From a virus: DNA of 6,577 nucleotides. This document shows, piece after piece, positions 4,995 through 5,225 of the stretch. A program made the position numbers and the translations under genes. The stretch lies in the UHGV virus genome UHGV-1437364. One strand, 5' to 3'. The number at the start of each line of letters is the position of its first letter. Within the stretch, counting starts at the first letter, position 1. The notes below the pieces were generated by a model. That model saw nothing but the letters and a program-made list of their open reading frames with translations, had not been told where the DNA came from and searched no databases.

Positions 4995-5225
4995 CTTGTC
5001 TACCTATCTACCTTAGTGGCCCTCATGCCAGTAATGGCGCGGCTTTCAGCGGGGTAGAGTGCTTTTATCCACTATCTACCCCGTGTCTACCTCCCTGTCT
5101 GATTCAGGTAAAATCAGGTAGAGAGGGTAGATAGTGGGTAGACAGTAAAAAAAGGCTATCTACCTAACTTAATGCACTGAATTAAATGTATTTTTCTTTA
5201 CTCAGGTAGACAGGGTAGACAGCCA
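4995..5225. repeat. Iteron cluster, putative replication origin, immediately 3-prime of the primase-helicase gene
   Basis: At least 11 copies of the core GGTAGA/TCTACC, often as GGGTAGACAG or CTATCTACC, in both orientations. Examples: 4998-5012, 5053-5058, 5072-5080, 5084-5092, 5116-5146, 5157-5165, 5205-5222. They flank an AT-rich spacer at 5166-5203. Confidence 0.7.

What the first reader, a model, noticed from the sequence alone, without database searches (positions are those of the whole stretch)
4995..5225. Iteron-dense putative origin directly downstream of the primase-helicase gene
At least 11 copies of GGTAGA/TCTACC in both orientations surround an AT-rich spacer, in the position where PICI and P4-type elements place their origin. 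The iteron sequence would define which initiator the element responds to.
Basis: partly seen in the sequence, partly recalled or inferred. Interest (0 to 1): 0.45.

Follow-up and report, generated by a model that had tools for sequence, protein, structure and literature searches.

The report
Known PICI replication origin with iterons
The repeat-dense stretch is real and is almost certainly the replication origin of a phage-satellite island (a PICI) of E. coli, but this island is already catalogued and a 96%-identical origin from a sister island has already been tested experimentally, so it is an ordinary, known feature.

Summary
Observation confirmed. GGTAGA/TCTACC occurs exactly 11 times in the window, all between 4999 and 5219 (1.4 expected in the whole window; 0 of 200 shuffles reach 11). 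The array starts 17 nt after the stop codon of the initiator gene and includes a 40-nt spacer of 22.5% GC.

Interpretation supported, but not new. The window is 100% identical to an 11-kb island of E. coli Nissle 1917 and ATCC 25922. Fillol-Salom et al. 2018 (PMC6092414) list that island as PICI EcCIATCC25922. They describe E. coli PICI origins as iteron sets flanking an AT-rich region just 3' of pri-rep. They tested pri-ori, pri-Δori and Δpri-ori plasmids for EcCICFT073. That intergenic region is 96.2% identical to this one and keeps all 11 hexamers.

Added here:
- The hexamer cores are far better conserved than the spacers in 50 distinct relatives.
- The initiator's C-terminal domain matches the phage P4 origin-binding winged helix (1KA8).
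- Iteron type follows that domain: GGTAGA here, GGTGAACA in P4-type relatives.
- There is one cluster only, with no second site like P4's separate ori.
- The window's last 45 bases are Nextera adapter, which truncates the initiator gene.

The parts
4999..5219 (.). Iteron array: 11 exact GGTAGA cores. '<' marks TCTACC on the + strand at 4999, 5007, 5075, 5086 and 5159. '>' marks GGTAGA at 5053, 5117, 5126, 5137, 5205 and 5214. Order: << > << >>> < [AT-rich] >>. Extended consensus aGGTAGA(c/t)AG.
   Evidence: In 50 distinct related intergenic sequences, 9 of the 11 hexamers are exact in at least 46 of 50. Core columns are 92.7% identical to the window against 68.4% for non-core columns (Mann-Whitney p = 1e-13).
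5165..5204 (.). AT-rich spacer (22.5% GC), the candidate DNA-unwinding site. It is bracketed by one iteron pointing left (5159-5164) and two pointing right (5205-5219).
   Evidence: An AT-rich spacer of similar size sits in the same place in relatives that use a different iteron sequence (Serratia L008, Morganella L009). That it melts is inferred, not shown.
5027..5048 (.). Conserved non-iteron block GCCAGTAATGGCGCGGCTTTCAG, between iterons 2 and 3. Role unknown.
   Evidence: Most of its columns match the window in at least 90% of 50 distinct relatives, while neighbouring spacer columns drift. It is absent from relatives with P4-type iterons.
4958..4981 (.). Conserved left border of the intergenic region. 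It holds the Shine-Dalgarno sequence of the next gene (GAGGGGG on the minus strand) and an A/T-tract box TTTAAAAAGTTTT.
   Evidence: conservation. Similar AAAAAGTTTT-like boxes lie next to the outer iteron pair in Serratia, Morganella and L072. It lies inside the fragment deleted in the published Δori construct.
5236..6532 (-). 3' part of the initiator gene (Pri-Rep): residues ~139-584 of a 584-aa protein. Domains found: D5_N, SF3 helicase P-loop (DUF5906) and Pox_D5 C-terminal domain. The gene is cut at 6532 by adapter sequence.
   Evidence: The helicase part matches SaPI5 PriRep (7OLA, E = 3.8e-15).
5263..5529 (-). Coding region of the C-terminal winged-helix domain (residues 488-576 of the full protein), the presumed iteron reader.
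   Evidence: phmmer match to PDB 1KA8, a P4 primase fragment, at E = 1.1e-6. Pfam Pox_D5 scores 23.4-24.0 bits against a cut-off of 21.4. Across loci the iteron type tracks this domain.
4251..4948 (-). Genes just downstream of the origin in the same transcription direction: a 92-aa protein of unknown function (4670-4948) and a single-strand DNA-binding protein (4251-4673).
   Evidence: No consensus promoter or terminator lies between the initiator gene and these genes.

Best explanation
Window 4949-5235 is the replication origin of a phage-inducible chromosomal island, EcCIATCC25922 (the copy found in E. coli Nissle 1917 and ATCC 25922).

Proposed mechanism: after helper-phage induction, the island's initiator is made. 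It is an SF3 helicase with a C-terminal winged-helix domain. That domain binds the 11 GGTAGA iterons, which lie about one helical turn apart in both orientations. Oligomers assemble on either side of the 40-nt AT-rich spacer, the spacer melts, the helicase loads itself, and replication follows, with the island's own SSB encoded next door.

Basis for each step:
- Shown here: the repeats, their selective conservation, the domain homologies, and the covariation of iteron type with the winged-helix domain.
- Shown in the literature for a 96%-identical homologue: dependence of plasmid maintenance on initiator and origin.
- Inferred from SaPI Rep and P4 alpha: direct binding, the melting site and self-loading.
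For: 1. Repeats far beyond chance, and confined to this region in 19 kb.
2. Purifying selection on the hexamers. In 50 distinct relatives the cores are 92.7% identical to the window and the spacers 68.4% (p = 1e-13). Nine of 11 sites are exact in at least 46 of 50. Order and orientation are kept even where the intergenic region is only 75-78% identical.
3. The initiator has a D5-type SF3 helicase homologous to SaPI5 PriRep (7OLA, E = 3.8e-15) and a C-terminal domain homologous to a P4 primase fragment (1KA8, E = 1.1e-6).
4. Iteron type follows the winged-helix domain. Across 232 locus records (with duplicates between scans), loci with the SLYR[VL]Y-type domain have GGTAGA as the top hexamer in 144 of 146. 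Loci with the YLYHAY-type domain, including P4, have GGTGAA, TGAACA or GGTATA and no GGTAGA.
5. The Serratia protein is closer to this one in the N-terminal and helicase parts (45.5% and 61.8%, against 18.6% and 46.1% to P4). It is closer to P4 in the winged helix (43.5% against 32.6%), and it uses P4-type iterons.
6. Literature: E. coli PICI origins are described as iteron sets flanking an AT-rich region 3' of pri-rep. EcCICFT073 pri-ori plasmids were maintained significantly better than pri-Δori or Δpri-ori plasmids (PMC6092414). The primers map the deleted region to the equivalent of window ~4926-5231.
7. SaPI origins have 6-12 iterons of 5-6 nt immediately downstream of rep, around an AT-rich region, read by the Rep winged helix (PMC9371898).
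Against: - No experiment exists on this exact island.
- In the published test, deleting the ori 'significantly reduced' colony numbers rather than abolishing them. That deletion removed the whole intergenic region, not the iterons specifically.
- The replication start site has not been mapped, and binding of the C-terminal domain to GGTAGA has not been shown.
- The AT-rich spacer is off-centre (9 iterons against 2), unlike the roughly symmetric SaPI layout.
- Adjacent DNA and the 3' end of the gene are co-inherited, so part of the domain-iteron covariation could be linkage.
- My single-sequence structure model of the C-terminal domain was unusable (pLDDT 47).
Confidence: 0.9

Rival explanations
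1. The array is a crr-like, cis-acting enhancer of replication, as in P4, where the iteron cluster next to the alpha gene is crr. On this view it is not the site where replication starts, and the true origin lies elsewhere.
For: In the P4 record, crr (2 x 120 bp, 10 type-1 repeats) lies 46 nt downstream of the alpha stop codon, while the annotated ori is 4.5 kb away. The initiator's C-terminal domain is homologous to that of P4 alpha.
Against: GGTAGA occurs nowhere else in the 19.1-kb locus that contains the whole island. In the CFT073 locus there are only two isolated single copies. So there is no second cluster to serve as ori. The array contains its own AT-rich spacer. The cloned pri-ori segment alone supported plasmid maintenance (PMC6092414).
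Confidence: 0.04
2. The repeats are mainly operator sites through which the initiator or another island regulator controls transcription of the downstream ssb and capsid genes. On this view any replication role is secondary.
For: The array lies within a unidirectional operon, between the initiator gene and the next gene. No terminator was found, so transcription probably reads through. Iteron-binding initiators of plasmids often autoregulate (general knowledge).
Against: No sigma-70-like promoter was found in 4850-5350. The published Δori effect is on plasmid maintenance. Iteron type covaries with the initiator's winged helix. The architecture matches SaPI origins. A regulatory side-role is not excluded.
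Confidence: 0.04
3. The repeats are packaging or recombination sites: terminase-binding sites of a cos region, or integrase arm sites.
For: The island carries a Nu1-like small terminase and is packaged by cos phages (PMC6092414).
Against: The lambda-type cosN 12-mers lie elsewhere, at 863-874 and 1730-1741, flanking the terS-like gene. The integrase gene and the att site are about 5 kb away, at the other end of the island. The repeats track the initiator domain, not the terminase or the integrase; islands with different att sites and packaging genes share them.
Confidence: 0.01

Closest known systems
EcCICFT073 ori (E. coli PICI; Fillol-Salom et al. 2018, ISME J, PMC6092414)
   Same: Same position, immediately 3' of pri-rep. 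The 287-nt intergenic region is 96.2% identical, with all 11 GGTAGA cores in the same order and orientation and the same AT-rich spacer. The last 95 residues of the two initiators are identical. This is the origin that was tested experimentally.
   Different: Different island and integration site: yejM/tRNA-Pro here, between roxA and phoQ in CFT073. Here a Nu1-like terS gene takes the place of a 144-aa hypothetical protein. The first iteron pair is spaced 8 nt here and 9 nt in CFT073 and most relatives.
SaPI origins (Staphylococcus aureus pathogenicity islands), read by Rep
   Same: Six to twelve iterons of 5-6 nt immediately downstream of rep. An AT-rich region is flanked by iterons pointing in opposite directions. 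The initiator is an SF3 helicase with a C-terminal winged helix (PMC9371898). The helicase part is homologous (7OLA, E = 3.8e-15).
   Different: Different iteron sequence and host. The AT-rich region is off-centre (9 iterons against 2). No sequence similarity in the DNA.
Satellite phage P4 ori/crr with alpha protein
   Same: The C-terminal domain is homologous (1KA8). The short iterons are about one helical turn apart and lie in both orientations. The 8-mer GGTAGACA differs from the P4 type-1 repeat GGTGAACA only at positions 4-5. An iteron cluster lies just downstream of the initiator gene in both.
   Different: P4 has two separated clusters, ori and crr, 4.5 kb apart; this island has one. 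P4 alpha has Zn-ribbon and Toprim primase domains that the PICI protein lacks. The winged-helix domains are only 30% identical.

Membership tests
PICI/SaPI-type replication origin | Lies immediately 3' of the replication initiator (rep or pri-rep) gene | tested here: met
   The stop codon is at 5236-5238 (minus strand) and the nearest iteron is at 5214-5219.
PICI/SaPI-type replication origin | Six to twelve short (5-6 nt) iterons in both orientations | tested here: met
   Eleven exact hexamers, 6 in one orientation and 5 in the other. None of 200 shuffles reached this count. Definition taken from PMC9371898.
PICI/SaPI-type replication origin | AT-rich region flanked by iterons that point in opposite directions | tested here: met
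   5165-5204 is 22.5% GC. It is flanked by TCTACC at 5159 and by GGTAGA at 5205 and 5214. The region is off-centre in the array.
PICI/SaPI-type replication origin | Cognate initiator is an SF3 helicase with a C-terminal winged-helix DNA-binding domain | tested here: met
   Pfam D5_N, DUF5906 and Pox_D5. PDB matches 7OLA (E = 3.8e-15) and 1KA8 (E = 1.1e-6).
PICI/SaPI-type replication origin | The fragment supports initiator-dependent replication | not testable with these tools
   Published for the 96.2%-identical EcCICFT073 region using pri-ori, pri-Δori and Δpri-ori plasmids (PMC6092414, Fig. 2b). Not done for this island.
PICI/SaPI-type replication origin | The host element is a PICI: about 11 kb, own integrase and att site, alpA-type regulator, pri-rep, phage-interference or packaging genes | tested here: met
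   Annotation of L001: int, HTH regulator, icd-like, DUF4222, primase-family protein, ssb, capsid, decoration and terS genes, next to tRNA-Pro and yejM. Listed as EcCIATCC25922 in Table S1 of PMC6092414.
P4 ori/crr system | Type-1 repeats TGTTCACC (= GGTGAACA) | tested here: not met
   No TGAACA or TGTTCA in the region downstream of the initiator in L001. The iteron is GGTAGA.
P4 ori/crr system | Two separated cis elements (ori and crr), both carrying the repeats | tested here: not met
   All 11 copies in the 19.1-kb L001 locus lie in one 221-nt cluster. P4 has clusters at 4291-4590 and 9310-9413.
P4 ori/crr system | Initiator with an N-terminal Zn-ribbon and a Toprim primase domain | tested here: not met
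   P4 alpha hits Zn_Ribbon_Prim and Toprim_3. The full-length PICI protein hits neither.
P4 ori/crr system | C-terminal origin-binding winged-helix domain of the alpha type | tested here: met
   1KA8 match over residues 488-576, E = 1.1e-6.
Iteron plasmids (RepA/Rep_3 type, e.g. pSC101, F, R6K) | Iterons of 17-22 bp bound by a Rep_3-family initiator, with conserved DnaA boxes | tested here: not met
   The iterons here are 6-10 nt. No Rep_3 hit was found. The single 8/9 DnaA-box match, TTATCCACT at 5065-5073, is not kept in diverged relatives L003-L006. The definition of this family is from general knowledge.

The most novel reading that the evidence does not exclude
The GGTAGA iterons are one member of a natural series of specificity variants shared by P4-like satellites and Gram-negative PICIs. 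The series reads GGT-GAA-CA (P4), GGT-AGA-CA (this island), GGT-GTT-CA (L085) and GGT-ATA-CA (L086). Each variant is paired with a matching version of the same C-terminal winged-helix domain. On this reading, a few residues of that domain set the central triplet. L085 and L086 differ at only about 10 residues across this domain. The origin is also built from two movable iteron modules, which appear in swapped order in L072-L075. If true, this would give a readable recognition code and a set of orthogonal satellite replicons. I did not find it described in the papers searched.
Probability: 0.45. Interest if true: 0.4.

Novelty: already known. Interest (0 to 1): 0.15.

Why it matters
It matters little as a discovery. 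The island is catalogued, and the origin of its near-identical sister island has been tested functionally.

It has some practical value. E. coli Nissle 1917 is a probiotic and engineering chassis that carries this mobilisable island. About 10% of complete E. coli genomes (564 of 5426) carry a matching origin region. Nearly all E. coli relatives examined share the same GGTAGA core and an almost identical winged-helix domain. Co-resident islands (up to 4 matching places per genome) could therefore respond to each other's initiators.

The pairing of iteron type with the winged-helix domain across P4-like and PICI elements could guide experiments on origin specificity.

Tried and rejected
- Structure of the C-terminal 124 residues (AlphaFold2, single sequence): mean pLDDT 47, unusable, so no fold search was run.
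- Rfam scan of the whole window: no family reached its gathering score.
- Consensus promoter and terminator scan of 4850-5350: none found.
- cos-site explanation: rejected, because the lambda cosN 12-mers lie at 863-874 and 1730-1741.
- DnaA box: TTATCCACT at 5065-5073 is an 8/9 match but is absent in diverged relatives, so it is treated as chance.
- Iteron 3' flank against the start of the putative recognition helix. The flank is C/T in 86-91% of iterons where the motif is N(D/E)FG. It is mostly G/A where the motif is A(D/E)FS. Individual AEFS loci range from 0 to 9 C/T iterons, so the association is too loose to claim.
- Genome-contig scan with the single protein: only 3 loci. The viral-contig scans with P4 alpha and the Morganella protein returned mostly redundant loci.
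- Published primer rep-2c does not match the CFT073 assembly exactly. There is one indel relative to the text of the supplement, and its 3' end aligns at L002 ~7989-7997. The left border of the tested fragment is therefore approximate.
- Literature searches for Nissle PICI work, or for later work on E. coli PICI origins, found nothing beyond the 2018 paper.

Full report
**The observation**

The hexamer GGTAGA and its complement TCTACC occur exactly 11 times in the 6577-nt window. All copies lie between 4999 and 5219. About 1.4 copies are expected for the whole window, and none of 200 dinucleotide-preserving shuffles reached 11.

Copies with one mismatch are near background, and only one of them (GGTAAA, 5107-5112) lies inside the array. 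The longer consensus is aGGTAGA(c/t)AG. Neighbouring copies in the same orientation are 8-11 bp apart.

In + strand orientation the order is << > << >>> < [spacer] >>. The spacer at 5165-5204 has 9 G/C in 40 nt. It is real but off-centre, with nine iterons on one side and two on the other.

**Surroundings**

All credible genes in the window are on the minus strand:
- an initiator gene (5236-6532) with D5_N, SF3-helicase P-loop (DUF5906) and Pox_D5 domains;
- the intergenic array;
- a 92-aa gene of unknown function (4670-4948);
- ssb (4251-4673);
- a 68-aa gene of unknown function;
- a lambda-E-like major capsid gene;
- a lambda-D-like decoration gene;
- a 137-aa gene of unknown function;
- a Nu1-like small terminase gene.

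The initiator's stop codon is at 5236-5238, so the array starts 17 nt downstream of it. No consensus promoter or terminator lies in 4850-5350, and no Rfam family matches the window. The last 45 bases of the window (6533-6577) are Illumina Nextera adapter with an index. The initiator gene is therefore truncated artificially. In complete genomes it encodes 584 aa.

**Identity of the element**

Window 4600-5700 is 100% identical to the chromosomes of E. coli Nissle 1917, ATCC 25922 and others. In Nissle it lies in an ~11-kb island next to tRNA-Pro and yejM. The island's genes run in this order: int, an HTH regulator, icd-like genes, small ORFs, DUF4222, the initiator, the array, ssb, capsid and decoration genes, and terS.

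Table S1 of Fillol-Salom et al. 2018 (PMC6092414) lists this island as EcCIATCC25922, at CP009072.1 106749-118031, att site yejM-luxR. The window matches 112340-113440 of that record.

**What is already published**

The same paper states that the region immediately 3' of the initiator gene in Gram-negative PICIs is organised like the origins of Gram-positive PICIs. [quoted passage not shown] It also tests EcCICFT073 in a temperature-sensitive vector. The pri-ori plasmid gave colonies at the restrictive temperature, and pri-Δori and Δpri-ori plasmids gave significantly fewer.

The intergenic region of EcCICFT073 is 96.2% identical to window 4950-5235 and has all 11 hexamers in the same order. 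The published primers show that the Δori construct ends at the equivalent of window 5232, 4 nt from the stop codon. The ori-containing construct extends to about the equivalent of 4926. Iteron-specific mutagenesis, binding assays and start-site mapping were not found.

**Evidence added here that the hexamers are the functional units**

I collected 74 loci with GGTAGA-type arrays, which give 54 distinct intergenic sequences. After setting aside four sequences that did not align in register, 50 remained. In these, the 66 core columns are 92.7% identical to the window, and the 165 non-core columns within 4995-5225 are 68.4% identical (Mann-Whitney p = 1e-13). Nine of the eleven hexamers are exact in at least 46 of 50.

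In relatives whose intergenic DNA is only 75-78% identical or only partly alignable, 9-11 copies persist in the same order while the spacers change. In the 19.1-kb Nissle locus the hexamer occurs nowhere else.

The full-length initiator matches two solved structures:
- SaPI5 PriRep (7OLA), over the helicase part, E = 3.8e-15;
- 1KA8, a 100-residue P4 primase fragment, over residues 488-576, E = 1.1e-6.

To my knowledge 1KA8 is the origin-binding winged helix of P4 alpha. A paper with that title is cited in several papers of the library.

The P4 GenBank record annotates its type-1 repeats as TGTTCACC, which is GGTGAACA on the other strand. The 8-mer here, GGTAGACA, differs from it only at positions 4-5.

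Iteron type tracks the C-terminal domain across loci:

| C-terminal domain | Loci | Iterons downstream of the initiator gene |
|---|---|---|
| SLYR[VL]Y type | E. coli PICIs, L072-L075 | 9-12 GGTAGA |
| YLYHAY type | P4, Serratia L008, L078-L084 | no GGTAGA; 7-11 TGAACA hexamers, consensus (G)GTGAACA(G) |
| YLYHAY type | Morganella L009, L085, L088 | no GGTAGA; 8-11 TGAACA hexamers, consensus GTGTTCAT |
| YLYHAY type | L086, L087, L089 | no GGTAGA; 6 GGTATAC(AT) |

The Serratia protein is closer to this one in the N-terminal and helicase parts (45.5% and 61.8%, against 18.6% and 46.1% to P4). It is closer to P4 in the winged helix (43.5% against 32.6%), and it carries P4-type iterons. This argues that the winged helix reads the repeats. 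Linkage between the gene's 3' end and the adjacent DNA explains part of the pattern.

**Mechanism**

By homology with SaPI Rep (PMC9371898) and P4 alpha, the most likely mechanism runs as follows. The winged-helix domain of the hexameric helicase binds the in-phase iterons on both sides of the AT-rich spacer. The spacer melts, the helicase loads itself, and replication follows. Binding, the melting site and self-loading are inferred. Dependence on initiator and origin is published for the CFT073 homologue.

**Differences from P4**

P4 has two clusters: crr, 46 nt downstream of alpha, and ori, 4.5 kb away. This island has one cluster. P4 alpha has Zn-ribbon and Toprim domains, and the PICI protein has neither. 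In my alignment the segment carrying the Toprim glutamate is a gap, and the DxD segment reads RAGY. The placement and single-cluster layout are PICI/SaPI-like. The DNA-binding domain and the iteron family are P4-like.

**Rival explanations**

- A crr-like enhancer is unlikely, because there is no second cluster.
- A mainly regulatory operator is not excluded as a side-role. It lacks a promoter and does not explain the plasmid-maintenance data.
- A cos or integrase site is excluded. The cosN 12-mers lie at 863-874 and 1730-1741, and the integrase end of the island is about 5 kb away.

**Verdict**

The feature is already known: a catalogued PICI whose origin type has been described and tested functionally in a 96%-identical sister island. 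What may be new is the relation of the GGTAGA iteron to the P4 type-1 repeat and the apparent series of iteron and winged-helix variants. That remains a hypothesis.

Noticed in passing
window 6533-6577: Illumina Nextera adapter (CTGTCTCTTATACACATCTCCGAGCCCACGAGAC), i7 index CGTACTAG, then ATCT. The window ends in sequencing-adapter contamination, which truncates the initiator gene at 6532. The ORF 'starts' found there (MYKRQ..., MCIRDS...) are artefacts.
   Followed up: yes
window 831-903 and 1701-1772 (cosN 12-mers at 863-874 + and 1730-1741 -): Two exact lambda-type cosN sequences (GGGCGGCGACCT) sit in a ~75-nt inverted repeat that brackets the Nu1-like small-terminase gene (1054-1596, minus strand). 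The 2018 paper lists Δcos.1 and Δcos.2 mutants of EcCICFT073, so two cos sites seem to be known for the sister island.
   Followed up: partly
L001 9637-11391 (-); N-terminal 138 aa lie outside the window: The protein annotated as 'DNA primase family' or Pri-Rep has no Zn-ribbon or Toprim Pfam hit, unlike P4 alpha. In the alignment the P4 Toprim glutamate segment is a gap, and the DxD segment reads RAGY. It may be a helicase-initiator without primase activity.
   Followed up: partly
window 5027-5048: The block GCCAGTAATGGCGCGGCTTTCAG, between iterons 2 and 3, is about as conserved as the iterons in 50 distinct relatives. It is absent from relatives with P4-type iterons. No function could be assigned.
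   Followed up: partly
L072-L075, 420 nt downstream of the initiator gene: The two halves of the origin appear in swapped order relative to the initiator stop codon. One half is '<< block > <<'. The other is '>>> < AT-rich >>'. About 100 nt lie between them. This suggests two separable iteron modules.
   Followed up: no
L085/L088 versus L086/L087/L089, downstream of the initiator gene: Close relatives whose C-terminal domains differ at about 10 residues use different iterons: GGTGTTCAT in one group and GGTATACAT in the other. A few of the other type remain as relics. This is a natural pair for mapping specificity residues.
   Followed up: partly
window 5065-5073: TTATCCACT is an 8/9 match to the DnaA-box consensus. 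It is present only in the closest relatives (window, CFT073, Shigella) and not in L003-L006. Probably chance.
   Followed up: yes
window 4999-5012: The first iteron pair is spaced 8 nt here and in Nissle, but 9 nt in CFT073 and most other relatives. This is a 1-nt deletion, TCTACC-TATCTACC against TCTACCTTATCTACC.
   Followed up: no
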